DNA from: a virus | DNA: 64,000 bases | IMG/VR virus record: IMGVR_UViG_3300029188_000196 | Coordinates: 2,329 to 66,328 of that record | Direction: 5' to 3' (one strand) | In this document: one piece after another, positions 560 through 50,758 of the stretch | Position numbering within the stretch: position 1 is the stretch's first letter | Layout: the number at the start of each line of letters is the position of its first letter | The notes under the pieces: generated by a model | What the model was told of the DNA's origin: nothing | Databases searched by the model: none | The model's input: the letters and a program-made list of their open reading frames with translations, nothing else | Program-made: the position numbers and the translations under genes

Positions 560-964
560 CTATAGAGTTCCTGATGCTCCAAATTCCTTTAGTGAGATTA
601 GGTTTCCTTTTTCATTTGCCGCAAGCGAAATAACAACAGCGTTTTTCTCTATATCATACCGCCCACTAAATTGATAGTCTTTTCCCGTAACAAGACCGTT
701 AGCATCCAAAAGTGACTGAACAAACCCCATTCCGTTGATTCTCATTTTGCATTGTCCATCAGTCAACAGCTTATCCGGAACCCGAAATGACATAGGGTGA
801 ACCGCAGCACACGGCGTAATCACTATGGATTTTCGATCTTTTCTCTGCAAAACGCAAATATAATCCGGGCTTCCAAGAATACGAATGATGTCCTTTCCAA
901 TATGTACTCTCCGACTTTCCGCTGGAATCGTCACCAATAAATTCATGATTCGTCCTGAATTCAT
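560..964 (-). CDS. Hypothetical small protein, possibly an AbrB/SpoVT-like DNA-binding fold
   Basis: 134-aa ORF. The N-terminal segment 'RRVHIGKDIIRILG' resembles the swapped-hairpin AbrB/MazE motif. No other recognisable motif. Confidence 0.3.
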   Translation of the reverse strand: MNSGRIMNLLVTIPAESRRVHIGKDIIRILGSPDYICVLQRKDRKSIVITPCAAVHPMSFRVPDKLLTDGQCKMRINGMGFVQSLLDANGLVTGKDYQFSGRYDIEKNAVVISLAANEKGNLISLKEFGASGTL

Positions 965-1785
965 GTCGGAGTTCCTCTCTCGACAGCTGTACTATCTGGT
1001 GGCTCCATATTCTCAGACTGTTCCTGCAAAACGGATAAAGAGGTTTCCTTAGAGGCTTCATCGGTCTGGAGTGTTGATTCTTTTGAAAGTTCATCCTTTT
1101 CCTGTTCAGGCTCATTCAATGCCACAGCCCCCTGATACCCGATAAAATCCTCAAACATGTTCATCTGATGAGCTGCAACATAATCATTATAAGATTTTCC
1201 GATACAATTCTTATAGGCATCCGGGAAGAATTTTATCTGCTTTTTCTTCGTTTCGCCAGTAACAGGGTCTGTATATTGCTGTGGTTTCGGTGTGAACATG
1301 ATGGCCTCTTCCAAGTCGAATAGCATACAGAGACCTTGATTTGAGTTAGCCACCCGTCCAAGCACTTTATAACGGCATTCTCTATTCCAGCTCATCATTT
1401 TATAGATTTTCTCTACAAATTCTAATGATACAATGTCCTTATTCACCCAACTTTCACCCTTTTGTCTGGCCCATTCAACAGAAGCACTGTCTTCTTCCGG
1501 GCACATAATCAATGCAAGTCGCTTCTTGTACGGATTCAAAATCGGGACTACATACTTAATTCCTTCAAAAAGTCGGATGCAGGCCATGTTAAATTTCATA
1601 ACGCCATATTTTATGCTCAATGCGGGTTTATTCAGCATAGAGAACTGTGTACGCGGTGGAAGTTCATAGCCATCGAAATTTTCGTACTCCAGTTCTCTTT
1701 TTTGTTCTTTCCGTATCTGCGCCAGTTCACGAATCAGCGTAATTTCCTGTGCACTCAGTTTCTGCTCCCGGCTTTTTTCTTCCAT
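961..1785 (-). CDS. Hypothetical protein
   Basis: 274-aa ORF translationally coupled to the downstream gene. Acidic N- and C-termini, no motif recognised. Confidence 0.35.
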   Translation of the reverse strand: MEEKSREQKLSAQEITLIRELAQIRKEQKRELEYENFDGYELPPRTQFSMLNKPALSIKYGVMKFNMACIRLFEGIKYVVPILNPYKKRLALIMCPEEDSASVEWARQKGESWVNKDIVSLEFVEKIYKMMSWNRECRYKVLGRVANSNQGLCMLFDLEEAIMFTPKPQQYTDPVTGETKKKQIKFFPDAYKNCIGKSYNDYVAAHQMNMFEDFIGYQGAVALNEPEQEKDELSKESTLQTDEASKETSLSVLQEQSENMEPPDSTAVERGTPT

Positions 1786-1799: not shown

Positions 1800-3644
1800 C
1801 TACATAGACATCAAAAGAGCATCCAGTTCACGCTGTACCTCATTTTTGCTCGGAATTGCGCCAATCATGGGATTTTCTACGACCAGTCCATACTCCATTA
1901 CATCGCTGTTCATAATGCTTTGAATCCACTTGCTCCGATATAATCGACATCCCAGATTCATAGCGGAGTTCTCAGCCTTCTTATAATGATTTTTTCCAAT
2001 CAAAGTCTGAGATTCATCCAGTTCAAAAATCAAGAATTTCGTATTTTGCCGCCCACGAGAGATACCACGACACTGATAGCGACAGTCCTGTTTCCAGTTC
2101 ATTTCATCTAATATCGCACCCGCAAAAGCTCTAGATGAAAATCTATTGCAGATGTCATTTGCATTTTGCCAATGAATCGCCGTTGAAGAGTCATGACCGC
2201 TCTTTCGCAGAATTATGACCTGCAGGATTGGATGATATAGCAGTTCCACATATTCACAGTCGTCCAATCTGGTATGACAAGCCTTGCTAAAACGAATTTC
2301 ATTTTTAGCAATTGTAATAACTGGGCTACTATGGTTGATAAAGCAGGCGCTGGAAGCCGTCAGATATTCAGACTGATACATCGAATCTTGTTTTTTCCCG
2401 GCCCTCATATCAGCCATAGCATTTAATTCTACCACTTCTTCTGGCATATAGGCACTCAGACAAAGGCTGCGGATACTTTCATCGTTTATACCACTCCAGT
2501 TCGGATGAATGCCTACAAATCCTTTCAATGCTCCCTGTTTAATTACAACGATATCCTGTACCCCACACCTTTTGCTGCTGGATGCCACAAGATGTGCAGC
2601 TCGTGCAATCTCCGGTGAAACAATCGCTTCGTGATGTTCTGGGACATAAGCCGAGCATCGGTCGCCATTATTCTTCGTCACCTTCCCCAGCTTATAATCT
2701 ACCACGATGCTCTTCCGAGCTTCCAAATCACCCCAGCGGCGTTCGTTTTTCATGATGTTGGCTACCATCATGCCGTTCCACTTTTGCCTGCCTCGCAGGG
2801 TGCTGCGCTTCTTTTTCGTAAGGATCATTGCAATTTGGTCGTAGTCGTACCCTTGAATAAAGGCCAGAAAAATAAAACGTACTGTCTTTGCTTCTTCCGG
2901 CTCGATTACCAGCTGCCCATCCGTTGTATGCCGATATCCCATCAAATCAGCTACCGGATATTGGCCAGTCATAATACGCTGATCATACGAAAGAATCATG
3001 CGACGGCTCTTATTACCAGATTCCCAGTCTGCTAAAAGAGCCTGAACATCCAAGCTATACTGGCTGTCAGGATTAAGCGTGTAAATATTTTCAGTTTCAA
3101 AGTACACACCAATCGGATGAGCCGGATGCATAGTTTTCAGGGCAGCGATTTGTGTCATGCAATCCGAGAAATTTCGAGCAAAACGCGAAACACTGGCACA
3201 AACAACCAAGTCGATTTTTCGCTCTTTTGCATCCTGCATCATGCGCTTAAAAGCATCACGCTTTCTCAGTGATGTACCGGATTTTCCTTCATCACTGTAT
3301 ATATTCTGCAGTGTCCAGTTCTCGGTTTCTGCAATCTTTTTAGTGTAATAGAGAGTTTGATTTTCAATTGAAGAAATCTGCTCTTCGCTGGAAGTACTAA
3401 CACGGGTATAAACCGCCACACGTTTCAGATTACTGTCATAAATAGATGGCGTGGGTTTTGCCGGACGGAAATAGTCTTTTGCCGTTTTCTGGCAGTGGTC
3501 CGTCTGCTTATGAATTCTACCACGAATTTCCGCTTTTCGTCTTTCTGCTTCCGTATGTCGGCTCTGCCAGTCCGTTCCAAGTGGGAGCATCTCAGTTTGT
3601 CCTGCAGGAATATACTCTATGGCTTTTTGTCCTTCTACAATCAT
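1800..3644 (-). CDS. Large serine recombinase (integrase)
   Basis: Resolvase catalytic motif 'VAVYTRVSTSSEEQ...SVSRFARN' followed by a recombinase domain and a long C-terminal extension. 614 aa, with about 75 aa ahead of the catalytic domain. Confidence 0.9.
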   Translation of the reverse strand: MIVEGQKAIEYIPAGQTEMLPLGTDWQSRHTEAERRKAEIRGRIHKQTDHCQKTAKDYFRPAKPTPSIYDSNLKRVAVYTRVSTSSEEQISSIENQTLYYTKKIAETENWTLQNIYSDEGKSGTSLRKRDAFKRMMQDAKERKIDLVVCASVSRFARNFSDCMTQIAALKTMHPAHPIGVYFETENIYTLNPDSQYSLDVQALLADWESGNKSRRMILSYDQRIMTGQYPVADLMGYRHTTDGQLVIEPEEAKTVRFIFLAFIQGYDYDQIAMILTKKKRSTLRGRQKWNGMMVANIMKNERRWGDLEARKSIVVDYKLGKVTKNNGDRCSAYVPEHHEAIVSPEIARAAHLVASSSKRCGVQDIVVIKQGALKGFVGIHPNWSGINDESIRSLCLSAYMPEEVVELNAMADMRAGKKQDSMYQSEYLTASSACFINHSSPVITIAKNEIRFSKACHTRLDDCEYVELLYHPILQVIILRKSGHDSSTAIHWQNANDICNRFSSRAFAGAILDEMNWKQDCRYQCRGISRGRQNTKFLIFELDESQTLIGKNHYKKAENSAMNLGCRLYRSKWIQSIMNSDVMEYGLVVENPMIGAIPSKNEVQRELDALLMSM

Positions 3645-4132
3645 TTTTCTTCAACCTTTTCCATTTCATTTTCCAATCGTGCTCTCCAAGCAAGATAGTC
3701 TGCTTTACGGATTGCTGTGTATTTTTCGGCTAAAACTTTCAGACTCCGCCTCTGATCTTCCACATCCAAAATAGTATCGATTCGCTGATCATTATCGTCC
3801 GTAACAATGTCAATCCGCATTGGCAAGTCAAACAGATATTGCAATAAGAAACAAAATTCGCATGTATTGGCTGCAAGGTAGGCTCGTGTCTGCGAAGAAA
3901 TTAGATTGATTTTCCCCTTTTTGCAGTCACGGAGTAAATGTACCATCTCTGGACGTTTGAAGATTTCTTTATTGCCTGTAATGTCAATGTACACACCGAA
4001 CAGCTCTTTATCTGTATCATCTTTGAATTTTTCAGCATAGTAGGAACTATGATAGGCTACTACGGCATCTTTAGAGCGTTCCCATAGTTTTGCCAGTTTT
4101 ACATAGCCGCCGACCTTATATTTGCTGTCCAT
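3641..4132 (-). CDS. Resolvase-like domain protein, catalytically degenerate
   Basis: Aligns to a resolvase N-terminal domain ('GGYVKLAKL...KRPEMVHLLRDCKKGKINLISSQTRAYLAANTCEF'). The Y-A-R-V-S nucleophile motif is replaced by Y-V-K-L-A, so the catalytic Ser is absent. Its stop overlaps the recombinase start. Confidence 0.55.
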   Translation of the reverse strand: MDSKYKVGGYVKLAKLWERSKDAVVAYHSSYYAEKFKDDTDKELFGVYIDITGNKEIFKRPEMVHLLRDCKKGKINLISSQTRAYLAANTCEFCFLLQYLFDLPMRIDIVTDDNDQRIDTILDVEDQRRSLKVLAEKYTAIRKADYLAWRARLENEMEKVEEK

Positions 4133-5105
4133 TTATAGCACCTTCTTCCGGCTGAACACTCCAATACCATCTCCGTTTCTTCTGATAGCAATGAATGCCC
4201 ATTTCCGTTTTCGCCATCCGTGCAACTCGTTTGCTGATGCCCTCATTATCCAGACGGCAATAAATTTCATTTGCACTCATATCACCATTTGCAAGAAAAT
4301 GTTTGATCCAATAGGCCGCCTTCTGCTGCTCAGAGTCAAATTTAGGCTTATCATCTTTCTGCTGAAATTCATAGGTTTGTGGTTTGCATTCCAGCCACTG
4401 AAAGCCACTCTCGGCAGAAATGGAAAAGCGAATGTCTTCTGCTGTAGGAGCAAGGCTGTTTTTGATTTGGTGTACGATTCTTATATCGGAGTTTTCCGTA
4501 TCTCGTTCTACCTGCAGGACGCTCCGCGCAGCTGCCACAACATCAATACTTCCAAGGCTACGGTACAGTCCCTTGGAGCCTTCCTTTTTATTAAGGTGTC
4601 CGATTAGAACGATGGCGCAGTCGTAGCCAGTAGCCCACATTCCAAGGCGGCGCATAAGTTTTCGTGCCCTACCTGCGATTTGCAAATCCGAATCGCTACC
4701 GAGGTATGCTTGGATCGGGTCAATCACGACCAATCGCGGCCGGAATTCAACAATTGCCTGACGGATACGCTCATCATCCAAGGTAAGACCGTTGTATACT
4801 TCCTCATTAATGAAAGCTATCTTCCTGCAATCTGCTCCGCATCGTTCCAGACGGGGTTTTATTGTGTCCGAAGCGTCATCTTCGGAGCACTGATAAATCA
4901 CCTTTTGTGGTACACCTACTTTACAGCCGTCTGGGGTCTTTCCTCCTGTCGAAAGCTCTGCAATCAGATTCATCATCATAGTGGATTTTCCATCGCCAGG
5001 ATCTCCCTGCAATAATGTGATTTTCCCAATTGCAATAAACGGATACCATAACCATCGTACATCTGTTGACTGAACTTCGCTGTACAACGTCAGTAACTGT
5101 TCCAC
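4116..5105 (-). CDS. AAA_25 / RecA-like (KaiC/DnaB-like) ATPase with C-terminal HTH-like region
   Basis: Walker A 'GDPGDGKST', Walker B 'LVVIDPIQ', then 'IGHLNK'. Typical of RepA/primase-associated helicases on mobile elements. GTG start. Confidence 0.75.
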   Translation of the reverse strand: MEQLLTLYSEVQSTDVRWLWYPFIAIGKITLLQGDPGDGKSTMMMNLIAELSTGGKTPDGCKVGVPQKVIYQCSEDDASDTIKPRLERCGADCRKIAFINEEVYNGLTLDDERIRQAIVEFRPRLVVIDPIQAYLGSDSDLQIAGRARKLMRRLGMWATGYDCAIVLIGHLNKKEGSKGLYRSLGSIDVVAAARSVLQVERDTENSDIRIVHQIKNSLAPTAEDIRFSISAESGFQWLECKPQTYEFQQKDDKPKFDSEQQKAAYWIKHFLANGDMSANEIYCRLDNEGISKRVARMAKTEMGIHCYQKKRRWYWSVQPEEGAINGQQI

Positions 5106-5372: not shown

Positions 5373-5717
5373 ATGTCCGTCAATTATTCCGCTTTAGGGA
5401 AACGTATTGGCTATTTCAGAATGCAGTGCGGTAACATCACCCAAGAAGCCTTAGCTTCTAAAATCAATCGCAGCCGTGAATTTTTGGCTAAAATTGAAAA
5501 AGGCACCGAACATCCAAGCATTGCCACGCTAGTCGATATTGCTGATGCCCTTTGCATTTCTGTTGATGATTTGTTGATTGATAGTCTTCACTATTCTGTT
5601 TCAACATCTAACTCCGAACTGCATCGTTTACTATTGGATTGCAATGAAACAGAGCAGGCCATAATCACCCGCATGGCAAAAGAGTTAAAGGCTACTCTTG
5701 TCAGCCTTGGAATTTAA
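5373..5717 (+). CDS. XRE-family HTH transcriptional regulator (Cro/CI-like)
   Basis: HTH motif 'ITQEALASKINRSREFLAKIEKG'. 114 aa, divergent from the recombinase operon. Confidence 0.9.
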   Translation: MSVNYSALGKRIGYFRMQCGNITQEALASKINRSREFLAKIEKGTEHPSIATLVDIADALCISVDDLLIDSLHYSVSTSNSELHRLLLDCNETEQAIITRMAKELKATLVSLGI

Positions 5718-5882: not shown

Positions 5883-7514
5883 TCAATCTTTCTCGTATTT
5901 TTCAATCAGGCATTGATGTTCTTTAGTGTCCTTGTCGTAATTAATTCCTACGAGTAGGATATCTCCAGTATAGCTCAGAATCGAAGACGGATACTTTTTG
6001 TCTTTTATCTGTTGCATGGCTGTCGCAGCATTTTTACTCCACTTCAATTCAACGACCATCGCTGGATATGATGAAATATACTCTGGCTTCGGTATGAAAA
6101 CAAAATCTGCAAAGCCTCGGCCAGTTGGCAGCTCCCGAATCGGTTTGAAATAATACTGCATTGCGCTCAAGTATGCGATTGCCAGTACACTGCTCAACGA
6201 ATTTTCGTTATGATACTGGATTACCGATACATATTCATTATGGATTTTCTCAATTTGAGCAGCGACTGTTATGCCATCCATGTCCAATGTTGCATCAAGT
6301 AGACGTTCTGAATCTCGCTGGAAAGACAGCATCTCATTCCACGCTCCACTTTCGACTGCTGCTGTGAGCTCCTGCCGAATTTCTTCATTGGGTACGAAAG
6401 CCGTCTTCAATTTTTGATTAAACCCAAGATATCCCAGATGAATCATATAGGTCAGCACATCGTCCCTACTTTTTATATTAACTGTATCATTTTTGAACGT
6501 CGCTGTGTTCACCTTGACCTCTGCACCAGAAAGCATCTCGATGATGGCCGTTTTTAGTCCATCGAAATCCATATTAATCAGTGGCACAATTGCATCATAG
6601 GAAGCAGTTTCTGACCAATAGCTTTTGAATTCTCCTCGCAGCATTACACTGACAACCGCTCTAGGATTATAGACTTGATAATCCTTCAGAAGATATCCGT
6701 CATACCACCGCTTCACCTCATCGAAATCCTGATGGTACTCCTCCGCCAGTTTCCGCACCTCATCTTCTGTAAATCCAATATATGGTGCTAGTCTGCTTGC
6801 ACTCAGCATTGTAAATTCATCAAAATTATTCAGTGCCGACTGAGTTTTTTCCTTCTTTATGGGAAGGATGCCTGTCAGATAAGCCAGTTGAATATACTTT
6901 GTTGGCTCTGTTCCTTTGAACATTCCTCTGAGGAAATTGATGTAATCTTCCTGTGCCTTCGTATTAGCAGCCTCGTCACGAATAAGAACATCCCATTCAT
7001 CAATAATGACGATGAACTTTTTTCCTGTTAGGGCATTGATTTGTGATAAAGCCTCTGGCAGCGACTTTGTTTCCTCTGGAAGCGTATCTGGATAGTACTC
7101 CTTAAGCTCTGCAATTGTCCTCTCAGAAATGTAAGGAACTACCTGTTCCGCTCCCCCCGCTGGTTCCATACACCATTGAATATCAAGATGAATTACGTCA
7201 TATTGATTTAAGTGCTTCTTAAAATCCGCGCTCTTGCTGATTTCCAAATCTGCGAACATCGCTTCTGAGTCGCAGCCTCTACTATAGTAAGCTGTGAGCA
7301 TATTCGCTGTAATAGACTTACCGAATCTTCTCGGACGGCTGTTGCAAATATAACCTTGCAGTGTATTTAAAACTCTATTTGTGTATTTAATGAGTCCGCT
7401 TTTGTCCACATAGATTTCAGAATTCAAAGCGACTTGGAACGCAGAATTGTCTGGATTCACAAACATTCCCATATCGTATCCCGTTCCTTTCCGTGACTGT
7501 TTGATACAAATCAC
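5883..7514 (-). CDS. AAA-ATPase-like (PF09820-type) plus PD-(D/E)XK (PDDEXK_9-type) family protein
   Basis: 'SRPRRFGKSITANMLTAYY' P-loop region typical of the 'predicted AAA-ATPase' family, with a C-terminal nuclease-like region. The likely true start is the internal ATG at 7472 ('MGMFVNPDN'), preceded by AAAGGAA. A TTGCTA-17-TAAAAT promoter sits at about 7528-7556 on the minus strand. Confidence 0.75.
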   Translation of the reverse strand: MICIKQSRKGTGYDMGMFVNPDNSAFQVALNSEIYVDKSGLIKYTNRVLNTLQGYICNSRPRRFGKSITANMLTAYYSRGCDSEAMFADLEISKSADFKKHLNQYDVIHLDIQWCMEPAGGAEQVVPYISERTIAELKEYYPDTLPEETKSLPEALSQINALTGKKFIVIIDEWDVLIRDEAANTKAQEDYINFLRGMFKGTEPTKYIQLAYLTGILPIKKEKTQSALNNFDEFTMLSASRLAPYIGFTEDEVRKLAEEYHQDFDEVKRWYDGYLLKDYQVYNPRAVVSVMLRGEFKSYWSETASYDAIVPLINMDFDGLKTAIIEMLSGAEVKVNTATFKNDTVNIKSRDDVLTYMIHLGYLGFNQKLKTAFVPNEEIRQELTAAVESGAWNEMLSFQRDSERLLDATLDMDGITVAAQIEKIHNEYVSVIQYHNENSLSSVLAIAYLSAMQYYFKPIRELPTGRGFADFVFIPKPEYISSYPAMVVELKWSKNAATAMQQIKDKKYPSSILSYTGDILLVGINYDKDTKEHQCLIEKYEKD

Positions 7515-7585: not shown

Positions 7586-7975
7586 TCAGTCTTTTCTCAA
7601 GAGGATATACACATCTTCGACAAAACTCATGAATTCCACACTGGCTCTCTCGACCATGTGCTTTCCATTTATACCTTTCAACTCTTCCATGACCTTTTCT
7701 GCCGCAACACCTCTCCGCTCTCCCACTTCTTGCATCGTACTCACCACCGCCTCATCGATGAAAGAAGCGTACTTTGCACCATCGATATGGCTTCGTACTG
7801 GCACAAGTTCGCCACTTTCAATGCGGAGCACGTTCGGCATATAGATTCGTTCAATCCTTGCCAGTGCTTCATCAGCTTCCATTTTACAAAGATACAGCTG
7901 CATGGCACTTACAGCCGCAACCTCCGATGCACAAACTCCATAGTTCTCCGATACGAGCTTTGAGATGTTATTCAT
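7586..7975 (-). CDS. Hypothetical protein at the prophage/host junction
   Basis: 129-aa ORF with an AGGAG RBS 8 nt upstream. It sits just downstream of the strong terminator that ends the recombinase operon. Confidence 0.5.
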   Translation of the reverse strand: MNNISKLVSENYGVCASEVAAVSAMQLYLCKMEADEALARIERIYMPNVLRIESGELVPVRSHIDGAKYASFIDEAVVSTMQEVGERRGVAAEKVMEELKGINGKHMVERASVEFMSFVEDVYILLRKD

Positions 7976-8061: not shown

Positions 8062-8104
8062 AAACGAAAAAAGGCCCCGCCAGACTATTTTGTCCAGCGG
8101 GGTC
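8062..8104 (-). terminator. Strong rho-independent terminator ending the prophage late/integrase transcript
   Basis: On the minus strand, GACCCCGCTGG...CCAGCGGGGCC hairpin (6-bp GC stem) followed by TTTTTTCGTTTAT. Confidence 0.7.
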
Positions 8105-8146: not shown

Positions 8147-10415
8147 TTACACAGCATCTTTACGCTCACGCTTTGCAGCCATCGTCAGGTATCGGCGGTA
8201 CTGAATGCTGAATCCATAAACCTTATACGGAGCATCCACATACTCAACCGTGCCATCCATATTGCACCGCTTGAAACCTCGGAAGCTGTTCAGCGTCCGG
8301 CGGTTTCCAACCGTAGTAAGGGTCACACCGAAGGTCGTCTTGAACTCGACCACATCTCCTTTGACCGTTTCCTTTTCAATGAAAGCACAGTAGATGCCCT
8401 TTTCAAAATGAAGCAGGTCGGGAGCCTCGGCAATCAGCTCCGGTGTAAGTTTCAGGCTACGCTTACGAGTACTCGTAGGGTTGCCATCTTCATCCCTATA
8501 TGCACTACTCTGAACATTCAGCCCATATACCTTCAGAGGCATACCTGCCGTGTTCTGTTCAGGAAGCTGTTTCAGGCAGTCGATGAAGACATCGAAGTTC
8601 TTCTTCATGTTTCCGAGTTCTCCCTGTTCGTTTTCCAGCATACTGCGCTCTTTTCGCAGGTCATCCATACGCTTCCGAATCTCATTTGCAAGCGTGTTAT
8701 AGGTTTCGACCACAGAACCTTCCTCGACATCGATGCTGTACATTCTCGTTCCAAGGTCACTGGCTGTCAGTCCATTGCGGATGTCCATTTCAAGGTCACC
8801 AATGGAAAGGTCACCGTTTGCAATGGCTTCTTTTAAATTCTCGTTCTGCTCCATCGCCGCCTCACGCATTGCAACCACCTGTTTACCGATGATTTCATTC
8901 AGTTTGACTTCCAATTCTTTCACCTGATCGTCCAGAGCTTCGATACGCTGAGCAGAAACTGCACTGTTTTTCACTTTCCGGTAAAACTTGTCGTAGGCAG
9001 CCTTAAACATCCGGACGATATCCGAACCATCACCTTTTGTCTCGTAGTCATACTTTAGTCGGTAGAGCATTTCCATGAAGCTCTGTTCCAAAGCGACCTC
9101 ATGGTAGAGTATGGTAGAGTTCGGAAGGACACCGCTCCTCGGCGGCTTCCCGTTCCGCATCTGTCATCCGCCCCAGTTTGCTGCGGCAGTATTTCTTCTG
9201 GTCAAGAGTTCCAGTCTTGGGTTCTTCCCCTTCCCGTACTCCGGCTTTCCTCTTACAACGCCAGACCGGGAATGCAAAAGTGTACTTCTCCAGATATTCA
9301 CCGCCGTCCTCACCTGTTGCCTGCAAACTCCGCTCATCCGTATAGCCAGATGCCACGTTCGTGTAGGTGAGGCGGAAGAATCCGGCACCGCACTCTTCTC
9401 CATCCGGCAAATGCGTTCCACAGACAAGGTTTACAAAGGGACGTTTCACAATGGTCTTCTTCTCTTTGGTCTTGATGTCTCCCCGGTTGGGTTTGTTGTA
9501 CATCATGGCCTGTACTTTATCCCAAGTCAGACGGTCGATGATTGCGACATGATGGTTTTCGATATAGTAGCGAGGTGCTTCACCACTGTTCTTTGAAGAC
9601 CGATGGGTTAGGAAGTCTTTTGTGATGGTCTTCTGCATCTCAATGTCGCCCACATACTTCTCATTCCGAAGAATGATCATAACGGAACCAGCTGCCCATT
9701 TCTTTCCGTTTACTGTCGGCCGCCCCATCTCATTCAATTCTGCCGCGATTTTAGTGGCGGACAGTCCCAGCAGATACCGCTCAAAGATGTAGCGGACGGT
9801 GGCCGCCTGATCGGAGTTGATGATCCATTCACCATCCGGACCCATATCGTAGCCAATCATGCGCTTCAGATTGATCTGCGGACTGCCGCGCTGGAACTTG
9901 CGCTGGAGTGCCCAGCGGATGTTGTCCGAAATGGAGCGGCTTTCGTCTTGCGCCAGAGCCGAAAGAATGGTCAAAATCAATTCACCAGTTGCATCCAGCG
10001 TATCGATATTCTCTTTTTCAAAGAAAACGCCCACCGGAGGATTGAGCTGTCGAAGCTCACGGATACAAGTTAGTGTATCAACCGTGTTACGGGCAAAACG
10101 GGAAATGGACTTCGATACGATATAATCGATTCTTCCTGCCTTGGCATCATCCATCATGCGGTTGAACTCCACGCGGTGCGCACGGCTCGTGCCGGACAAT
10201 GCTTCGTCCGCATAGATGCCAGCGAAACGCCAGCCCGGTTTGCTGGTGATGAAACTCGTATAAAAAGCTTTCTGGGTCGTATAGGAAGTCTGCTGACTTT
10301 CATCTCCCGTGGAAACACGGCAGTAGGCAGCCACACGGATGTTGTTCTGCATCTTCAACTGACCGCCATTTTGCACAGAGCGTTTGGTTGCCGGAATAAT
10401 AGAAACATTTGCCAT
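8147..10415 (-). pseudogene. Large serine recombinase disrupted by a frameshift (10-bp tandem duplication)
   Basis: An N-terminal ORF (9099..10415; 'VAAYCRVSTGDE...SKSISRFARN') and a C-terminal ORF (8147..9160; coiled-coil and C-terminal domain) sit in frames that differ by +1. Deleting one copy of ATGGTAGAGT at 9101-9120 restores a single reading frame of about 755 aa ('...CPSELYHEVALEQSF...'), matching the neighbouring intact paralog. Confidence 0.8.
9101..9120. repeat. Perfect 10-bp tandem duplication (ATGGTAGAGT x2) causing the recombinase frameshift
   Basis: Read directly from the sequence. Confidence 0.9.
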
Positions 10416-10429
10416 AGTGCTTTCTCCTC

Positions 10430-12661
10430 TCATTTTATAAACCGTTTCCGGTATGCGTTATCCCGCATGACCTGTCCATCATAGTAGCTGGCGGTATTGC
10501 GGAAGTCTTCAATATTGCTGTCCATCTCCACTTTTGTTCGAGTGTCATCGAACCAATGAACACTGTACTTCAGCGGAGAGTAAACCGTGATGGACAGGAT
10601 GAACGCTTTGCAGTGTTCCCCTGTCAATCCATTCAAGAATGCTACGGTTCCCTCTCGGCCCTTGGGAAGCTGTCTCATCCACTGCACCGCTTCTTCTCTG
10701 CGGTCGTAGTCATCTTCCAGCTCATCCCAGTAGTCTTCCAGATAATCGAGCTTGTCCTCCAGCTTCTGGGCTTCGGTCTCATCCTGCTCTATCCGTTTTC
10801 TCAACCGCTCGATTTCCTCTTTTCGCTCAGTCAGGGCCGCTTCATCTATCGTTTCATCTCCAAGCAAGTCCCGCCGGGTCTCCATCGCATCTTTCTGGCT
10901 TTGAAGAAGGCTCATTCTCTTATGGGCAGCTTCTGCGTCTTTCTGGAGTGCGATGATTTGCTTTTTGTAGAAACAACGGTCACGCTCCATGAAGTCAATC
11001 TTCTGCAGGTTTTCAAGCCGTGCCTGCATCTGAATCACAAAGTCATCGGCCTCATGAGTAAGAAAGTCGGTATTCTCTGCGTACCGTCCGCTCATAATGT
11101 CTGCCACGCTCACATCATCCCGAATGGGGGCGCTCGACAACTGGAAGCGTTCTATCACGGCCCTGCGGATAACACGGACAATCTGCTCTTCGTAGACACT
11201 TTCGGCATGGCAGATGCTCTTTCCATTGTTCTGCTTCGCCGAAGGGCAAAACCATATAGGATTCAGATTTCTATTTCTTACATTGAAAAATCGTCCGCAG
11301 CTTCCGCAGATAAGCCGTCCTGAAAAAGCCCACTGTGTTTTTTCCTCTCTCTTGTGCGAATCCGATTTTGCATTGACGATCTTTTGCACCTTTTCAAACA
11401 GTTCCCTGCTCACAATCGCTGGATGATGGTCTTTAATGTAGTACTGCTGAACTTCACCTTTGTTTTTCCGCACTTCATGCGACAGATAGTCAGCAGTATA
11501 GCTTTTCTGTACCAGAACATCTCCAGTATACCGTTCATTGCGAATCATCCCAGCAATCCGACCGTTTGTCCATCCGGTGTCAAGCTCGCTGTTAAGCTGA
11601 CCTTTCTTGGATTTGACCTTGCGCAACTTCTGTGCACTGCTCTCCGGAGCAGGAATGTGCTCACGGTTCAATTTCCTTGCGATGTCTGCAAACGAGAACC
11701 CTTCTGCGACCTCTTGGAAGATGCGCCGGATAACTACAGCTTCCTCCTTAACGATTTCAACTGCCTTATACTTGTAGCCGCTTTCGCTGGTAATCATCTC
11801 ACCATTGTAGCGGTATCCATAGATGTCAACATTCCGCACATCTCCACGCTTAAAGCGCATCTTATTGCCAAGGTTGATGTTGCCGGAGATGCTTCGGCTT
11901 TCCTCTTGCGCAATAGCCCCCAGTGTAGTAAGGATGAATTCACTGGTCGGGTCTGCTGTATCGAGATTTTCTTTCTCGAATAGAATCGTCACATTGTTTT
12001 CTCGAAGCAAATCCAGTGCCATCATAAAATCAGCCGTATTTCGGGCGAATCTCGAAATCGACTTGCAAATCACGCGGTCGATTTTCCCTGCCTTGCAATG
12101 CCGAAGCAGTCTGCGGAAGCCGGTACGCTTTTCACTGTTCGTGCCAGAGATACCATAGTCCGAATATACACCGATGGGATTCCACTCAGGGTTGGCTTCA
12201 ATCAGCTGGTTAAAGTACCGTTCCTGCGTTTCATAGGAGTTTTCCTGGTCAGATGAATCCGTTGAAACACGGATATAAGCGGCAACATTCAGCGTTCCAG
12301 TCTTCTGCTTCGTTGCACGGAAGCTCTCAGCAGAGATGAAATCACCCGGTTTTGCTTCATATACCAATTCCTGAGAGGGCTCATCACTCCTCTCAACCGG
12401 AATCGTAATGTCCTGCCGTACCACGGCGGCCTTCTTTGTGGTGACTGCTTGGTCGATGAACGCCTGCAATGCGGGGTCAACTTTCTTTTTTTGTTGAGTA
12501 GACTTGTCTTTCGTCTGATTTTTCTTGGGTGAAAAAAGAACCGCAGCGGAACCCAGTTCAGGCAGGTTCACAGCTGCGGTCTTGTTAGATGTCTTTGGCT
12601 GTACCGACTTTTCTTCAGTCATCTTCTGCAATTTTGCCAAGAAATCAGTTGTTGTACTCAT
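10430..12661 (-). CDS. Large serine recombinase (integrase) with about 125-aa N-terminal extension
   Basis: 'LNVAAYIRVSTDSSDQ...CKSISRFARNTADF' catalytic domain, recombinase domain, zinc ribbon 'CGSCGRFF', coiled coil. AAAGGAGAG RBS precedes the first ATG, so the Lys/Thr/Gln-rich extension is translated. Its stop overlaps the start of the next recombinase (ATGA). Confidence 0.9.
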   Translation of the reverse strand: MSTTTDFLAKLQKMTEEKSVQPKTSNKTAAVNLPELGSAAVLFSPKKNQTKDKSTQQKKKVDPALQAFIDQAVTTKKAAVVRQDITIPVERSDEPSQELVYEAKPGDFISAESFRATKQKTGTLNVAAYIRVSTDSSDQENSYETQERYFNQLIEANPEWNPIGVYSDYGISGTNSEKRTGFRRLLRHCKAGKIDRVICKSISRFARNTADFMMALDLLRENNVTILFEKENLDTADPTSEFILTTLGAIAQEESRSISGNINLGNKMRFKRGDVRNVDIYGYRYNGEMITSESGYKYKAVEIVKEEAVVIRRIFQEVAEGFSFADIARKLNREHIPAPESSAQKLRKVKSKKGQLNSELDTGWTNGRIAGMIRNERYTGDVLVQKSYTADYLSHEVRKNKGEVQQYYIKDHHPAIVSRELFEKVQKIVNAKSDSHKREEKTQWAFSGRLICGSCGRFFNVRNRNLNPIWFCPSAKQNNGKSICHAESVYEEQIVRVIRRAVIERFQLSSAPIRDDVSVADIMSGRYAENTDFLTHEADDFVIQMQARLENLQKIDFMERDRCFYKKQIIALQKDAEAAHKRMSLLQSQKDAMETRRDLLGDETIDEAALTERKEEIERLRKRIEQDETEAQKLEDKLDYLEDYWDELEDDYDRREEAVQWMRQLPKGREGTVAFLNGLTGEHCKAFILSITVYSPLKYSVHWFDDTRTKVEMDSNIEDFRNTASYYDGQVMRDNAYRKRFIK

Positions 12662-12828
12662 AATTCTACTCTCCTTTCTGCCCTTTATTTCCTTTGGGCA
12701 GTCACATATTCCCTCTGTTTCGTGATATTATCAAGTAAATTTGGCGCAGAAAAACGGAGAATAATCTGTCGGATTATTGTCTTTTCTGCACGATATGTAC
12801 TCCCCGCCCAATAAGGACGGGGACAGAC

Positions 12829-14283
12829 TCAGATACGAGTCACAAGGTCGAGCGAGATCCAGCCTGCACCGGATTTCAGCTTGCCCCAGCCTTTCGTGGA
12901 ACCAACGCCAGTAGATTCTGCCACAATGGTGAATACACCCTTTCTGGTGTACTGCCCGGTCTTTGCATAGTTCGTGCCCGGACCTTTGCGGATGTTGAGG
13001 TCGCTGACGGACACACGGACTGCATACGGAACAGAGGACTTCTGCTCCGGATAGACCGCCTTGCCCGCCGGGTCAAACACACAGTAGCCCGGATTGGCAT
13101 CCGCACACTGCTTTGCGTTGGCGAGGTCACGGAACGCCCCCTTCTGGGATGCAGCGTTCTGCCAGCTCTTACGCACACGATACCATCCGGAAATCGTAGT
13201 GTCGGTGGTGGAATTGAACTTCGTCAGATTCCATTGCTCGATGATGCTGCAAAGGTTTTGTACATAGTCATGACTGGTAGCGTAACCACCATCCTTGATG
13301 ATTTGTGCGGCCTTCTTGTAATCGGTACAGCCAGCCAGACTCTCATAGCGTTTCTTGCTGCCATTCATCGCACCGAGCAGATACGCCGCATGGTCGGCAA
13401 TAGAGTCCTCGACACAAGTGTACTTACGGAAATCAGCATTGAACATCACATAGCTTCCTTCTGCATTCTGTTCCTGCGTTTTCTTGGTGTAGACGGACTT
13501 GCCATCCCACACAGAGTTCGGCCAGCTGTTCCCGGAAAGGCTGGTCTTCATACCAAAGCAGTTGTTCGCCTTTCGTGCCAGTTCGGAAGAACCGTAGCTG
13601 GATTCCAGAATGAACTGCGCCATCGACACACAGGCGAGGATGCCAGTGGTTTTCTGGTTTGCAGTAAACAGCGGACCGATTTTGGCTACCGTCTCCGCTC
13701 TAGTAAGATTTTCCAAGTCAGCCGCCTGCAAGCCGGGAGAATCATTCAGGGCAGCTGTAACCTTTTCGGCCAGATCCCCAAGACGAGCATACAGCCAGTC
13801 GCCGGGGCAGCTTTTATTTGCATACCAGCGATGGACCGTCAGTACCATCTCATCCGACGCAGGTGCGTAATTGAGAGTTTTATTCTTGTCGCCAAGCCAT
13901 AAAAGTTTCCGCTTGCCATTGCGCTGGCAAATGTCAGTGCAGAGTTTGATGAGCGAGGCATACACGGCACTGTTCATGGCATACGGCTCGCTCTTATCGC
14001 TTGCACACTCAATCGTGATGGCGCGCTGGTCATTGGCATTGCTGGACGAACACCAGCTGCGGTTTTTCTCTTCTACGCAAAGAGAGATTTTCCCGTCTTT
14101 GCCAATACCATAGTTACAGCTTGCCTGACGGCTCGTGCTTGCAAAGCATCCGCAGATACTTTCCGCAGAAAGCTGACCGACCACACAATGCGGAGTGATA
14201 CGGTCAATGCTGTGGGTGCGCTGCCCGGAATGATTCGGACTGAGTTTGGTGTAGGACACCAGAGGGCTATTGGAATAAGCCAT
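12829..14283 (-). CDS. Endolysin: N-acetylmuramoyl-L-alanine amidase (Amidase_2/PGRP) + glucosaminidase + ~50-aa module + SH3b
   Basis: 'HSIDRITPHCVVGQ' amidase_2 region. 'MAQFILESSYGSSELARKANNCFGMK' mannosyl-glycoprotein endo-beta-N-acetylglucosaminidase motif. C-terminal SH3-like 'VRVSVSDLNIRKGPGTNYAKTGQY...GWGKL'. Start at 14283, preceded by AAAGGAG. Confidence 0.85.
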   Translation of the reverse strand: MAYSNSPLVSYTKLSPNHSGQRTHSIDRITPHCVVGQLSAESICGCFASTSRQASCNYGIGKDGKISLCVEEKNRSWCSSSNANDQRAITIECASDKSEPYAMNSAVYASLIKLCTDICQRNGKRKLLWLGDKNKTLNYAPASDEMVLTVHRWYANKSCPGDWLYARLGDLAEKVTAALNDSPGLQAADLENLTRAETVAKIGPLFTANQKTTGILACVSMAQFILESSYGSSELARKANNCFGMKTSLSGNSWPNSVWDGKSVYTKKTQEQNAEGSYVMFNADFRKYTCVEDSIADHAAYLLGAMNGSKKRYESLAGCTDYKKAAQIIKDGGYATSHDYVQNLCSIIEQWNLTKFNSTTDTTISGWYRVRKSWQNAASQKGAFRDLANAKQCADANPGYCVFDPAGKAVYPEQKSSVPYAVRVSVSDLNIRKGPGTNYAKTGQYTRKGVFTIVAESTGVGSTKGWGKLKSGAGWISLDLVTRI

Positions 14284-14356
14284 TTCACACACTCCTTTAT
14301 AATAAGGAAAGGCCCGGACCACTCCGAGCCTTTATGGGTTGATTACTTCTTTGTGT

Positions 14357-15064
14357 TTAGGGAATCAGCAATTTCATACCGACACGGATGGCATTGGAAG
14401 TCAGACCGTTCAGGGTACGGATATCCGCACAGCGACTTCCATCTCCCAGTTCCTCCTTGGCAATCTTCCAGAGGTTGTCACCGGGCTGGACGGTATAGGT
14501 CTTGCTGGCCGTGAATGCGTAGGTGTCTGCACTGTTCAGGACATATGCCACGCCATCTTCTGCTTCCGCACACTTGATCTTCAGCCAGCCATCACAGAAC
14601 TGGATGATCTCTACAAGGGTGTTTTTCTTATAGACCGTCACGATCTCCGCACTGGTATCCGGTTTTTTGCGGATGTTCATGAGGGTCTTGAGCTTGCCAT
14701 AGGCAATGGTAGCCGGAAGTTCTTCTGCGGTCGGAAACTCGGTCTCGTCCACATCAGCCTCGGCTTTCTCCTCTGCCAAATCATCCGTCTTCGGCTGTTC
14801 CTCTACATCAGGTTCTTTCTCTTCCTGCTCGTCCAGAACCGGCTGTTCCTCGCTCTCCTCTGCTCCGGTGACAGGCACAGCCTCCTCCGGGTAGATCACA
14901 TTGCCGTCGTTGTCGAACACACGGCTGCCGGGATTCTCATCACACTTGGCTTTTGCGTTCGCCAACAGACGGTACGCGCCCAGCTGAGATGCTTCATCCT
15001 CCCAGTCCATGCGCACGCGATAGTAACCGGTCGTCAGTTTTGCAGGATAATTGTTCTTACTCAT
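14357..15064 (-). CDS. Cell-wall-binding protein (shared ~50-aa module + acidic linker + SH3-like + LysM) with no catalytic domain
   Basis: N-terminal 'TGYYRVRMDWEDEASQLGAYRLLANAKAKCDENPGSRVFD' is paralogous to a segment of the endolysin. C-terminal LysM 'YTVQPGDNLWKIAKEELGDGSRCADIRTLNGL'. GGAGG RBS 8 nt before the ATG at 15064. Confidence 0.65.
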   Translation of the reverse strand: MSKNNYPAKLTTGYYRVRMDWEDEASQLGAYRLLANAKAKCDENPGSRVFDNDGNVIYPEEAVPVTGAEESEEQPVLDEQEEKEPDVEEQPKTDDLAEEKAEADVDETEFPTAEELPATIAYGKLKTLMNIRKKPDTSAEIVTVYKKNTLVEIIQFCDGWLKIKCAEAEDGVAYVLNSADTYAFTASKTYTVQPGDNLWKIAKEELGDGSRCADIRTLNGLTSNAIRVGMKLLIP

Positions 15065-15116
15065 AGCACTTGCCTCCATAAAATGTGGGAGGGGCCGTTA
15101 CACCCCTCCCGGTTGC

Positions 15117-15560
15117 TCACTGTTTCTTCTCTTCGCTGGTTTTACCGTTCAGTTTAGCCGCATGATTCTCATCCACAAGCTGAATGAGCATGGCTTTCAA
15201 CTTCTCCGGCACAGGGAGTCCGATCACAGCACAGTTCTCCAGAATAGAAAGGCCCTCGTTAGAGATTGCCCAGAAAATCAGAGCAGTTCGGAGTGCTGCG
15301 CCCTCGCCGATGATCTGCGTATCGATCACACTGGAGATACCAACAAGGATGAAGATGCATACCTTCTTGGCGATACCCTTAAACCCGACCTCAGAAGACA
15401 GCTCATGTCGCACGGCCGCTGCAAGCACCCCAGTGAAATAATCACAGGTCACAAAAACAACCAGCGCATAAAAGAAGCCGTCAAAACCGCCGAAGAACCA
15501 GCCCAGGAATGCACCCATACCTGCAAACATCAGCTCTAACTTATCGATCACATTCTGCAT
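15117..15560 (-). CDS. Holin (TcdE/phage_holin_4-like, three predicted TMs)
   Basis: 147 aa with hydrophobic segments 'FAGMGAFLGWFFGGF', 'ALVVFVTCDYFTGVLAA', 'VCIFILVGISSVI' and a charged C-terminus. Sits immediately upstream of the lysin genes. Confidence 0.75.
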   Translation of the reverse strand: MQNVIDKLELMFAGMGAFLGWFFGGFDGFFYALVVFVTCDYFTGVLAAAVRHELSSEVGFKGIAKKVCIFILVGISSVIDTQIIGEGAALRTALIFWAISNEGLSILENCAVIGLPVPEKLKAMLIQLVDENHAAKLNGKTSEEKKQ

Positions 15561-44926: not shown

Positions 44927-44948
44927 GGTATGTTCTCCTTTGGCTTTC

Positions 44949-44997
44949 TTCCCTTTCGGTGTGTGTATATTACCGTCAGGAACGGACTAATTCAAGG
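44949..44997 (-). promoter_or_regulatory. Early promoter-operator module, copy P7 (TTGAAT-17-TAATAT)
   Basis: Conserved module sequence. Confidence 0.55.
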
Positions 44998-45065
44998 CCA
45001 TAAAAGAACATATAGTCGACAAATATACAGTAGAAAAATCGTGTACATTTCTGCGATTTATCCGC

Positions 45066-45094
45066 TTGATAATGTACATTTGAAGAGTTAATAT
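45066..45094 (+). promoter_or_regulatory. Inverted-orientation promoter P10 (TTGATA-17-TAATAT, plus strand), antisense to the amidoligase-2 3' end
   Basis: It shares the CCGCTTGATA -35 context with the early modules. No RBS-preceded ORF lies downstream. Confidence 0.4.
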
Positions 45095-45151
45095 CGGTAC
45101 AATGGAAGAAGGTCTCGCATATTTCCGGCCCCCATTGGGGGGCTTGGGAGC

Positions 45152-46300: not shown

Positions 46301-46346
46301 AATTCGTCGCTCCTTTTTTAATTAGTCTTTTGTGCATTCCGATGTT

Positions 46347-50737: not shown

Positions 50738-50758
50738 GTAGATCCTCCCACTTTAGAT

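What the first reader, a model, noticed from the sequence alone, without database searches (positions are those of the whole stretch)
8147..12661. Tandem pair of large serine recombinases; upstream copy has a 125-aa N-terminal extension
Two large serine recombinase genes are translationally coupled (ATGA overlap) at the prophage end, directly after the lysis genes. The intact one has a long Lys/Gln/Thr-rich leader ahead of the catalytic domain, which is unusual because the nucleophile domain is normally N-terminal. Tandem Ser-recombinases suggest a two-component integrase, two att specificities, or an RDF-like partnership.
Basis: partly seen in the sequence, partly recalled or inferred. Interest (0 to 1): 0.55.

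Follow-up and report, generated by a model that had tools for sequence, protein, structure and literature searches.

The report
Paired serine recombinases, one broken, in prophage
A gut-bacterium (probably Faecalibacterium) prophage carries an ancient, co-inherited pair of large serine recombinase genes. The first has a real but disordered 125-residue leader, the second is broken here by a 10-bp duplication, and a third recombinase lies further downstream; this is a variant of known multi-recombinase modules, not a new kind of system.

Summary
The two minus-strand genes are real large serine recombinases (LSRs). rec1 (10430-12661, 743 aa) is intact. Its 125-aa leader is translated: it has the only good ribosome-binding site, it is conserved as short motifs in more than 20 homologues, and its dN/dS is 0.27. 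The leader is predicted to be disordered and matches no known family.

rec2 is split by a 10-bp tandem duplication (9101-9120). An intact 752-aa allele exists elsewhere, but the broken allele is by far the commoner in metagenomes.

The two are not recent duplicates: 38% identity over the N-terminal 354 aa, with unrelated C-termini. rec1-type genes are followed by rec2-type genes in essentially all Clostridia loci examined, and the two co-diverge (Mantel r = 0.89). This fits a CcrAB-like or ICE-triplet-like partnership, which is not demonstrated.

The pair is not at the prophage end. About 8 kb of conserved genes follow, including a third LSR (1800-3644) and a catalytically dead resolvase-like ORF. 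The long leader occurs only in the phage-borne clade that also carries this third-LSR module. att sites and the division of labour among the recombinases remain unresolved.

Verdict: new variant of a known kind, moderate interest.

The parts
10430..12661 (-). rec1: intact large serine recombinase, 743 aa. Domains: Resolvase 126-274, Recombinase 306-430, Zn ribbon 446-499, predicted coiled coil about 536-650, small C-terminal alpha/beta domain.
   Evidence: Pfam; AF2 model; Foldseek best hits are full-length serine integrases (SPbeta, phiC31, Bxb1, LI); nucleophile motif YIRVS invariant in the family alignment.
12287..12661 (-). Coding region of the rec1 N-terminal extension (aa 1-125): mostly disordered, with short conserved helices/motifs (DFLAxLQK; SFLP..KSTQQK; GIxALIxKAL; SEFxxVF; FISxxxFRxTKxKxG).
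   Evidence: Alignment A1. AF2 pLDDT below 50 except helices 6-16 and 63-79. No Pfam, NCBIfam or PHROG hit. phmmer against 1.84 billion representatives finds only 4 close fragments. dN/dS 0.27 versus 0.07 for the core.
12669..12677 (-). Shine-Dalgarno sequence AAAGGAGAG, 9 nt (from GGAG) before the rec1 ATG at 12661.
   Evidence: Sequence. None of the seven in-frame alternative start codons in the extension has an SD.
9099..10433 (-). rec2 5' fragment (444 aa from ATG 10433; 438 aa from the likelier ATG 10415). Contains the catalytic, recombinase and Cys-rich zinc-ribbon-like regions and ends at a premature TGA.
   Evidence: Gene calls of 438 aa in other assemblies.
9101..9120 (-). 10-bp tandem duplication (ACTCTACCAT x2) that frameshifts rec2 exactly at the junction between the last zinc-ligand Cys and the first long helix.
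   Evidence: One copy in L008-L013, L123 and L124, two copies in the window and 12 other loci. Position relative to AF2 helix 436-460.
8147..9100 (-). rec2 3' fragment (+1 frame; the open ORF extends up to 9160): long helical/coiled-coil region and beta-rich C-terminal domain.
   Evidence: Intact 752-aa allele P0121 is 100% identical over both halves.
8075..8102 (-). Intrinsic terminator (11-bp stem, 8 GC pairs, T-run) closing the rec1-rec2 unit. GC content drops downstream of it.
7586..7975 (-). orf129: small protein of unknown function, conserved just downstream of rec2 in all phage-type relatives. Candidate accessory factor.
   Evidence: 29-51% identity in relatives.
5883..7514 (-). AAA-ATPase_like + PD-(D/E)XK_9 protein: variable cargo between the pair and the XRE module.
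   Evidence: Replaced by other genes in L002 and L007.
5373..5717 (+). XRE-family repressor, divergent from the AAA_25-rec3 operon.
   Evidence: Conserved in relatives.
4116..5105 (-). AAA_25 (RecA/RadA/DnaB-like) ATPase.
   Evidence: 70-75% identical in relatives.
3641..4132 (-). orf163: stand-alone degenerate resolvase catalytic domain lacking the nucleophile (YVKLA in place of YIRVS).
1800..3644 (-). rec3: third large serine recombinase, 614 aa; Resolvase domain starts at residue 76.
560..1785 (-). orf274 and orf134: conserved unknown ORFs ending the module. The host junction lies beyond window position 1.
12829..15560 (-). Lysis cassette (holin, LysM/SH3 protein, amidase-glucosaminidase endolysin) immediately upstream of rec1.

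Best explanation
The locus is the paired-LSR module (rec1 then rec2) of a temperate tailed phage, probably of Faecalibacterium.

Shown:
- rec1 and rec2 are ancient paralogues that are inherited and diverge together as one bicistronic unit across Clostridia.
- rec1 in the phage-borne clade has gained a translated, mostly disordered N-terminal tail of about 100-125 aa, carrying a few conserved short helices.
- In this window rec2 has been knocked out by a single 10-bp tandem duplication. The break separates the catalytic and DNA-binding part from the coiled-coil and C-terminal part.
- A third LSR, with its own XRE repressor, an AAA_25 ATPase and a dead resolvase-like subunit, lies 4-8 kb further on.

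Inferred: where both genes are intact, rec1 and rec2 work together as a hetero-oligomeric integrase/excisionase on one pair of att sites, as CcrA/CcrB and the LSR triplets of streptococcal ICEs are thought to do. The disordered tail of rec1 would then be a docking or regulatory segment (partner, cofactor or turnover signal), not a DNA-binding domain. In this prophage lineage the pair is crippled, so persistence or movement must depend on rec1 alone, on rec3, or on vertical inheritance.
For: LSR identity:
- Domain architecture and catalytic motifs of all three LSRs.
- Structural match of the rec1 model to solved serine integrases.

The extension is translated:
- A ribosome-binding site only at ATG 12661.
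- Motif conservation with in-frame indels in 22 homologues of 53-82% identity.
- dN/dS 0.27 at dS 0.89.
- Disorder with two helices in the AF2 model.

The pair is old and linked:
- 38% identity over 354 aa, with C-termini that do not align.
- rec1-type is followed by rec2-type in about 45 of about 50 Clostridia loci with enough sequence.
- Mantel r = 0.89, with 0 of 2000 permutations reaching it, over 33 loci.
- A strong terminator directly follows rec2.
- In relatives without an extension the pair abuts host-type genes, as expected for a terminal integration module.

The rec2 lesion:
-. The intact allele appears.
- All 13 fetched broken-allele loci carry the same duplication; the three compared directly (L014, L023, L024) are 100% identical to the window over the rec1-rec2 region, implying a single origin.

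Precedents for multi-LSR modules:
- ICE triplets that cluster by position (PMC4701971).
- CcrAB (PMC11470126).
Against: - No att site, empty site or excision junction was identified, so no recombinase is tied to a substrate.
- The broken rec2 allele is far commoner than the intact one: 1582 index blocks versus about 12 contigs.
- The broken allele occurs with at least two different right-hand flanks at about 99.98% identity. This suggests that rec2 is dispensable for persistence and perhaps for movement.
- The pair is separated from the host junction by about 8 kb that contains another LSR.
- rec1 or rec2 are independently broken in several relatives (L006, L050, L063, L086, L129).
- The role assigned to the N-terminal tail is pure inference.
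Confidence: 0.5

Rival explanations
1. rec3 is the integrase of the composite element. The XRE-AAA_25-rec3 module is a portable integration cassette at the very end of the element, and the rec1-rec2 pair is a secondary or vestigial module (for example from an earlier integration system, or serving another rearrangement).
For: - rec3 lies nearest the host junction and has its own divergent repressor.
- The same module, with the same right flank, sits next to an unrelated three-LSR + TnpV element in L022.
- rec2 and rec1 decay repeatedly in this clade.
- The broken-rec2 lineage is extremely widespread.
Against: - rec1 and rec2 are under strong purifying selection (core dN/dS 0.07).
- They are kept intact in most diverged relatives.
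- Relatives without rec3 have only the pair at the element end.
- rec3 is only about 35% identical among relatives whose AAA_25 is 70-75% identical, so the module is itself a mosaic.
Confidence: 0.2
2. The region from window about 5811 leftwards is a separate small integrative element (satellite-like or IME-like, using rec3) lying in tandem with the phage. The phage's own attR lies between the AAA-ATPase gene and the XRE gene, and rec1-rec2 act there.
For: - A sharp left boundary at window about 5811 is shared by two unrelated left-hand partners.
- GC content is lower (0.39-0.46 versus about 0.52).
- Tandem and nested element structures are documented as common in Faecalibacterium (PMC12084326).
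Against: - No copy of the module without a left-hand mobile element was seen among the contexts returned.
- The module accompanies the phage arm in all diverged relatives with enough sequence.
- The low-GC stretch already starts at about 8100, before the boundary.
Confidence: 0.15
3. The two LSRs act independently, each as a homo-oligomer with its own att specificity (two integration sites, or one integrase plus one resolvase/invertase).
For: - The C-terminal (DNA-recognition and coiled-coil) halves are unrelated.
- Loss of rec2 is tolerated.
Against: - Near-universal adjacency and co-divergence over about 45 loci is more than expected for two independent functions.
- No second set of inverted or direct target repeats was found near the pair (one search covers only the tail region).
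Confidence: 0.12
4. rec2 is a non-catalytic, RDF-like regulator of rec1.
For: Tight linkage to rec1. No small RDF has been identified.
Against: The rec2 family keeps the nucleophile Ser and the other catalytic-domain invariants (R33, S35, R81, R106, R109 and others in A2), together with a full recombinase domain.
Confidence: 0.04
5. The N-terminal extension is an annotation artefact, or the two genes are recent duplicates.
For: None beyond the initial doubt.
Against:: ribosome-binding site, conservation, dN/dS below 1, and 38% identity limited to the N-terminal half.
Confidence: 0.02

Closest known systems
CcrA/CcrB of staphylococcal SCCmec
   Same: Two adjacent, co-oriented, divergent LSR genes in one operon at the edge of a mobile element. 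Tandem accretion of elements at the same locus.
   Different: - Sequence membership fails: NCBIfam CcrA/B/C scores are 48-139 bits against cut-offs of 700-900.
- The element is a tailed prophage of a Clostridia host, not an SCC at rlmH.
- The proteins are about 200-300 aa longer.
- rec1 has a disordered N-terminal tail.
- A third LSR module is present.
Triplets of serine integrases in Streptococcus ICEs (Tn1806/Tn5252-type; Ambroset et al. 2016, PMC4701971)
   Same: - Tandem LSR paralogues, same orientation, near an element end.
- Paralogues cluster by position, implying an old duplicated module.
- Some relatives of this phage have three in a row (rec1-recM-rec2).
- Function of the individual members is unknown in both cases.
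   Different: - Here the carrier is a phage, with a lysis cassette immediately upstream and no conjugation genes.
- There is a pair rather than a triplet in this window.
- Phylogenetic relation to the external/middle/internal groups was not tested.
Canonical phage serine integrases (SPbeta SprA, phiC31, Bxb1, A118/LI)
   Same: Same domain order (catalytic, recombinase, zinc ribbon with coiled coil). These are the best structural matches. PHROG 95 'integrase'.
   Different: - Those act as single-gene homotetramers with a small RDF and start with the catalytic domain within about 10-20 residues.
- Here the gene is paired, carries a 125-aa leader and an extra C-terminal domain, and is not adjacent to the host junction.
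C. difficile conjugative-transposon recombinase (PDB 3g13) and TnpX/TndX-type LSRs
   Same: Closest solved catalytic domain: 42% identity, E = 3.8e-39. Clostridial mobile-element origin.
   Different: No DUF4368 domain was detected in rec1-rec3. The TnpX-like LSRs with TnpV in L022 are only 24-27% identical.

Membership tests
Large serine recombinase / serine integrase | Resolvase-type catalytic domain with nucleophilic Ser (Y-x-R-x-S) followed by the Recombinase domain (PF07508) | tested here: met
   - rec1: PF00239 1.2e-32, PF07508 1.1e-24.
- rec2: PF00239 5.2e-30, PF07508 2.2e-25.
- rec3: PF00239 6.4e-24, PF07508 8e-12.
- Motifs YIRVS, YCRVS and YTRVS.
Large serine recombinase / serine integrase | Zinc-ribbon domain with embedded coiled coil | tested here: met
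   - rec1: PF13408 4.2e-09 and long helices 536-650.
- rec2: no Pfam hit, but a Cys-rich beta region at 330-387/429 and helices 436-612 in the AF2 model, so met structurally only.
- rec3: not modelled.
Large serine recombinase / serine integrase | Catalyses attP x attB recombination around a 2-bp crossover | not testable with these tools
   No att sites were identified. The empty-site search failed.
CcrA/CcrB (SCC recombinases) | Sequence membership (NCBIfam equivalogs NF047343/NF047344) | tested here: not met
   Best scores are 139 bits (rec2 vs CcrB) and 78 bits (rec1 vs CcrB), against a cut-off of 900. CcrA scores are 48-54 bits against 700.
CcrA/CcrB (SCC recombinases) | Two adjacent LSR genes in one transcription unit | tested here: met
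   A 14-nt spacer or ATGA overlap, a single terminator after rec2, and synteny in about 45 loci.
CcrA/CcrB (SCC recombinases) | Carried by an SCC element integrated at rlmH/orfX of staphylococci | tested here: not met
   Tailed-phage context (terminase, portal, capsid, tail, lysis). The flank is Faecalibacterium-like.
CcrA/CcrB (SCC recombinases) | Both proteins required together for recombination | not testable with these tools
   Only co-inheritance is shown. The prevalence of the broken rec2 allele argues for dispensability in this lineage.
ICE serine-integrase triplets (Ambroset 2016) | Three tandem co-oriented LSR genes near the element end | tested here: inconclusive
   There are two in the window. 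There are three (rec1-recM-rec2) in L002-L005, L086, L128, L130-L134; recM in L129 is truncated. The pair is about 8 kb from the host junction.
ICE serine-integrase triplets (Ambroset 2016) | Carrier is an integrative conjugative element | tested here: not met
   No conjugation genes were found. Phage structural and lysis genes are present.
ICE serine-integrase triplets (Ambroset 2016) | Phylogenetic clustering with the external/middle/internal groups | not tested
TnpX/TndX-type LSRs | C-terminal DUF4368 (PF14287) | tested here: not met
   No PF14287 hit at E <= 0.01 for rec1, rec2 or rec3. Neighbouring elements in L008 and L022 do have it.
Single-gene phage serine integrase with RDF | Integrase gene adjacent to attP / the prophage end | tested here: not met
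   Conserved genes, including rec3, lie between the pair and the host flank.

The most novel reading that the evidence does not exclude
The phage-borne clade has evolved a coordinated three- or four-recombinase system. In it, the disordered N-terminal tail of rec1 (found only where the XRE-AAA_25-rec3 module is also present) would be a docking segment. It would couple or insulate the rec1-rec2 integrase from the rec3 module, its AAA_25 ATPase and the catalytically dead resolvase-like subunit. One outcome could be that phage and a satellite-like cassette are excised jointly or separately. That would be a regulated hierarchy of serine recombinases within one prophage, which has not been described.
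Probability: 0.12. Interest if true: 0.7.

Novelty: new variant of a known kind. Interest (0 to 1): 0.4.

Why it matters
Multi-gene serine-recombinase modules (CcrAB, ICE triplets) are common in Firmicutes but mechanistically poorly understood. Why two or three paralogues are needed is an open question.

This phage family offers natural material for that question:
- intact and naturally broken alleles differing by only 5-16 substitutions over the 4.5-kb rec1-rec2 region;
- versions with and without an N-terminal tail;
- two-, three- and four-recombinase versions, all in abundant human-gut bacteria.

It also matters practically. Catalogues that mine LSRs for genome engineering assume one gene equals one integrase. 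Paired LSRs, and LSRs with leaders, would be mis-scored under that assumption.

The finding itself does not overturn anything.

Tried and rejected
1. Programmed frameshift at the rec2 break: rejected. A single-copy allele with a continuous ORF exists. The required +1 shift at CCA-TGA has no slippery context. The broken-allele loci compared directly are 100% identical across rec1-rec2 and all 13 carry the same duplication, whereas intact ones differ by 5-16 substitutions. This points to a single mutation rather than phase switching.

2. Empty-site / attB search through the flanking acyltransferase gene: it landed on a paralogous locus next to another prophage and gave no empty site.

3. Walking to the left prophage end: it reached CI/Cro, an S24 repressor, UmuC/YolD and KwaB, but no integrase and no host junction.

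4. Identifying the phage in INPHARED: only short fragments or distant hits. It is not one of the deposited Faecalibacterium phages.

5. Remote homologues of the N-terminal tail: none in Pfam, NCBIfam or PHROGs, and none beyond close relatives by phmmer against 1.84 billion representatives.

6. RNA genes or structured repeats in the non-coding tail right of orf134: Rfam found nothing. Short repeats and a 22-nt inverted repeat were found but not interpretable.

7. An apparent 1-kb insertion in rec1 in some tblastn matches: this is an artefact of the match running on into the homologous part of rec2.

8. A relationship between the LSRs of the L022 neighbour element and rec1/rec2: only 24-27% identity, so a shared target specificity cannot be argued.

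Full report
**1. What is in the sequence**

On the minus strand, the lysis cassette is followed after 167 nt by a 743-aa ORF (10430-12661, here rec1). The cassette comprises holin (15117-15560), a LysM/SH3 protein (14357-15079) and an amidase-glucosaminidase endolysin (12829-14322). After rec1 come two overlapping ORFs of 444 aa (9099-10433) and 337 aa (8147-9160).

- rec1 has Resolvase (residues 126-274), Recombinase (306-430) and zinc-ribbon (446-499) domains.
- The 444-aa ORF has Resolvase and Recombinase domains.
- The 337-aa ORF matches nothing in Pfam.

The two short ORFs are one gene (rec2) broken by an exact 10-bp tandem duplication, ACTCTACCAT-ACTCTACCAT, at window 9101-9120. Deleting one copy gives an uninterrupted 758-aa ORF. 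A 752-aa protein that is 100% identical across both halves exists in other metagenomes (P0121). In the loci that encode it the 10-mer is present once; in the window and 12 further loci it is present twice.

**2. Start codons and coupling**

rec1 starts at ATG 12661, preceded by AAAGGAGAG. None of the seven other in-frame ATG/GTG/TTG codons within the extension has a Shine-Dalgarno sequence.

The rec1 stop and the first ATG of rec2 do overlap as ATGA. However, an ATG 18 nt downstream (10415) lies 8 nt after AGGAG. It corresponds to the N-terminus of homologues and is the start chosen in most other assemblies (438 aa and 752 aa). In relatives the two genes are separated by 14-35 nt or overlap by 4 nt. 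They are tightly linked, but the specific ATGA coupling is not a conserved feature.

A strong intrinsic terminator (11-bp stem, 8102-8075) follows the rec2 stop. rec1-rec2 therefore form one unit.

**3. The N-terminal extension is real**

Twenty-two homologues at 53-82% identity, 745-860 aa long, align from their first residues. Their extensions differ by many in-frame indels but share short motifs: DFLAxLQK at the very N-terminus, SFLP...KSTQQK, GIxALIxKAL, SEFxxVF, and FISxxxFRxTKxKxG just before strand 1 of the catalytic domain.

Against the 82%-identical homologue (DNA in L122), the extension has dN/dS = 0.27 at dS = 0.89, compared with 0.07 for the rest of the protein. It is therefore translated and constrained, although more loosely than the core.

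AlphaFold2 predicts it to be disordered (pLDDT below 50), apart from helices at 6-16 and 63-79 and a turn at 111-114. It has no match in Pfam, NCBIfam or PHROGs. A full phmmer scan of 1.84 billion representative proteins returned only four fragments of close relatives.

The remainder of the model has the canonical serine-integrase architecture. Its best structural matches are full-length SPbeta, phiC31, Bxb1 and Listeria integrases. The closest solved catalytic domain is a C. difficile conjugative-transposon recombinase (3g13).

**4. The two genes are old partners, not recent copies**

rec1 and repaired rec2 share 38% identity over 354 residues (catalytic plus recombinase domains). They do not align beyond that.

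I scanned one genome per GTDB species and obtained 80 loci. In essentially every Clostridia locus with enough sequence, a rec1-type gene is immediately followed by a rec2-type gene. Across 33 loci with both genes full length, pairwise identities of the rec1 set and the rec2 set correlate with r = 0.89, and 0 of 2000 Mantel permutations reached that value.

The pair has therefore been inherited as a unit for a long time. This is the pattern reported for the position-specific clades of ICE serine-integrase triplets (PMC4701971). It is compatible with a CcrAB-like partnership (PMC11470126).

Neither protein is a Ccr orthologue: scores of 48-139 bits fall far below cut-offs of 700-900. No DUF4368 domain is present.

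**5. The pair is not the end of the element**

Downstream of the terminator come, in order:
- orf129 (7586-7975);
- an AAA-ATPase/PD-(D/E)XK gene (5883-7514);
- a divergent XRE repressor (5373-5717, plus strand);
- an AAA_25 ATPase (4116-5105);
- orf163 (3641-4132);
- a third LSR, rec3 (1800-3644, 614 aa, catalytic domain from residue 76);
- orf274 and orf134.

orf163 is a stand-alone, degenerate resolvase catalytic domain in which the nucleophile motif YIRVS has become YVKLA.

The order holin, endolysin, rec1, (recM), rec2, orf129, variable genes, XRE, AAA_25, rec3, orf274 recurs in relatives whose rec1 is only 44-61% identical. These include isolates labelled Faecalibacterium, Blautia and Ruminococcus and 12 IMG/VR contigs. 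Some have a third LSR (recM) between rec1 and rec2, giving four LSRs in all.

The long N-terminal extension (catalytic Ser motif at residue 133 or later) is found only in this phage-type context. Relatives of rec1 without the extension (Ser motif at residues 8-60) have neither lysis genes upstream nor the XRE-AAA_25-rec3 module downstream. Their pair abuts host-type genes, twice glycosyltransferase clusters.

**6. Boundaries and neighbours**

Comparison of near-identical metagenomic loci shows several things.
- The XRE-to-orf134 module has a sharp left boundary at window about 5811. In L022 an unrelated element (three TnpX-like LSRs plus TnpV, 24-27% identical to rec1/rec2) lies to its left, with the same right flank as the phage-bearing L024.
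- To the right, different contigs leave the common sequence at window 519 or 700-800 bp beyond window position 1. They run into another phage, into a DUF4368 LSR gene, into a glycosyltransferase cluster, or into an acyltransferase-groESL region whose proteins carry Faecalibacterium prausnitzii names.

This is the tandem/nested mosaic described for Faecalibacterium mobile elements (PMC12084326). I could not obtain an empty site or the left prophage end. No att site is defined, so I cannot say which recombinase acts where.

**7. The broken allele**

The frameshift falls immediately after the last invariant Cys of the zinc-ribbon region and at the first residue of the long helical region (AF2 helix 436-460 of the 752-aa protein). 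It would leave a catalytic and DNA-binding fragment without the coiled coil that serine integrases use for synapsis and directionality (established knowledge from A118, phiC31 and SPbeta).

- The truncated product is indexed in 1582 blocks of the assembly collection. One 438-aa sequence was seen on 871 contigs. The intact product was found on about a dozen contigs.
- All 13 fetched broken-allele loci carry the same two-copy duplication, and the three compared directly (L014, L023, L024) are 100% identical to the window across rec1-rec2. Intact-allele loci differ by 5-16 substitutions. This points to one mutation in one very successful lineage rather than phase variation.
- One locus has a further 208-bp duplication in the same gene. 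rec1 or rec2 are independently disrupted in several relatives.

rec2 is therefore dispensable in the short term. Either the prophage is grounded and rides a common host lineage, or rec1 and/or rec3 suffice.

**8. Interpretation**

The descriptive part is secure:
- an ancient, co-inherited LSR pair on a phage;
- a translated, disordered, clade-specific leader on rec1;
- a specific inactivating lesion in rec2;
- a third LSR module downstream.

The mechanistic part is inference by analogy and from co-evolution. This covers the idea that the pair acts as a hetero-oligomeric integrase/excisionase, and the idea that the leader is a docking or regulatory segment. I give it about even odds. The main rivals are that rec3 is the working integrase of the composite, or that the rec3 module is a separate tandem element.

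The finding is a new variant of a known kind of system, of moderate interest. Its main value is as a natural comparative series for asking why some mobile elements need several serine recombinases.

Noticed in passing
window 3641-4132 (-): orf163 is a stand-alone, degenerate serine-recombinase catalytic domain with the nucleophile lost (YVKLA instead of YIRVS). It is wedged between the AAA_25 ATPase and rec3. It is absent from relatives L002 and L007, where AAA_25 abuts rec3.
   Followed up: partly
window 1800-3644 (-): The third large serine recombinase (rec3) also has an N-terminal extension, of about 75 aa before the catalytic domain. It is unrelated in sequence to that of rec1. rec3 is only about 35% identical among relatives whose neighbouring AAA_25 is 70-75% identical.
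   Followed up: partly
L018 11823-12030 (= window 8594-8801 duplicated): A 208-bp tandem duplication inside the already frameshifted rec2 in one metagenomic copy: a second decay event in the same gene.
   Followed up: no
window about 5811; L022 1-5155: The XRE-AAA_25-orf163-rec3-orf274-orf134 module occurs with the same right flank but a completely different left neighbour: three TnpX-like LSRs plus TnpV. The module is therefore a separable unit with a sharp left boundary.
   Followed up: partly
window 519; L016 19897 onward; L008 20594 onward; L021 1-4508: Near-identical contigs leave the window sequence at different points. They run into another phage (GDSL lipase + TerL), a DUF4368 LSR gene on the opposite strand, or ParB/ArdA/DUF3801 genes. 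These are either real mosaics of abutting mobile elements or assembly chimeras.
   Followed up: no
L023 10880-11260 (non-coding tail just beyond window position 1; motif also at window 78 and 506): A 22-nt inverted repeat (86% match) with arms 274 nt apart, and repeated GCTGTTGAGTA-like motifs located at the points where contigs diverge. These may be recombinase half-sites; unexplained.
   Followed up: partly
L038 and L039 (whole loci): Isolates labelled Faecalibacterium intestinale and Blautia faecis (different families) share 98.7% identity over 21.9 kb of the related prophage arm. This suggests a broad host range, recent transfer, or contamination or mislabelling.
   Followed up: no
window 43991-60837: The phage carries a MetK-like S-adenosylmethionine synthetase (52519-53631), a C5 cytosine methylase (46523-48694), a ParB_N-fused N6/N4 methylase (49457-50737), an amidoligase (43991-44926) and a VapE-like primase (58189-60837). 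This is a sizeable DNA-modification and anti-restriction load.
   Followed up: no
L118 1-9700 (left arm, outside the window beyond 64000): The left arm has a 435-aa HTH + S24 peptidase repressor, a UmuC-like Y-family polymerase with YolD, an HNH protein and a Kiwa KwaB homologue. No integrase was seen on that side within the fetched left arm (to about 19 kb beyond window position 61920).
   Followed up: partly
L006 12474-14796 versus L007 12474-14786: In a distant relative (rec1 55% identical) rec2 is again split in one metagenome and intact in another. This is an independent inactivation of the same partner gene.
   Followed up: no
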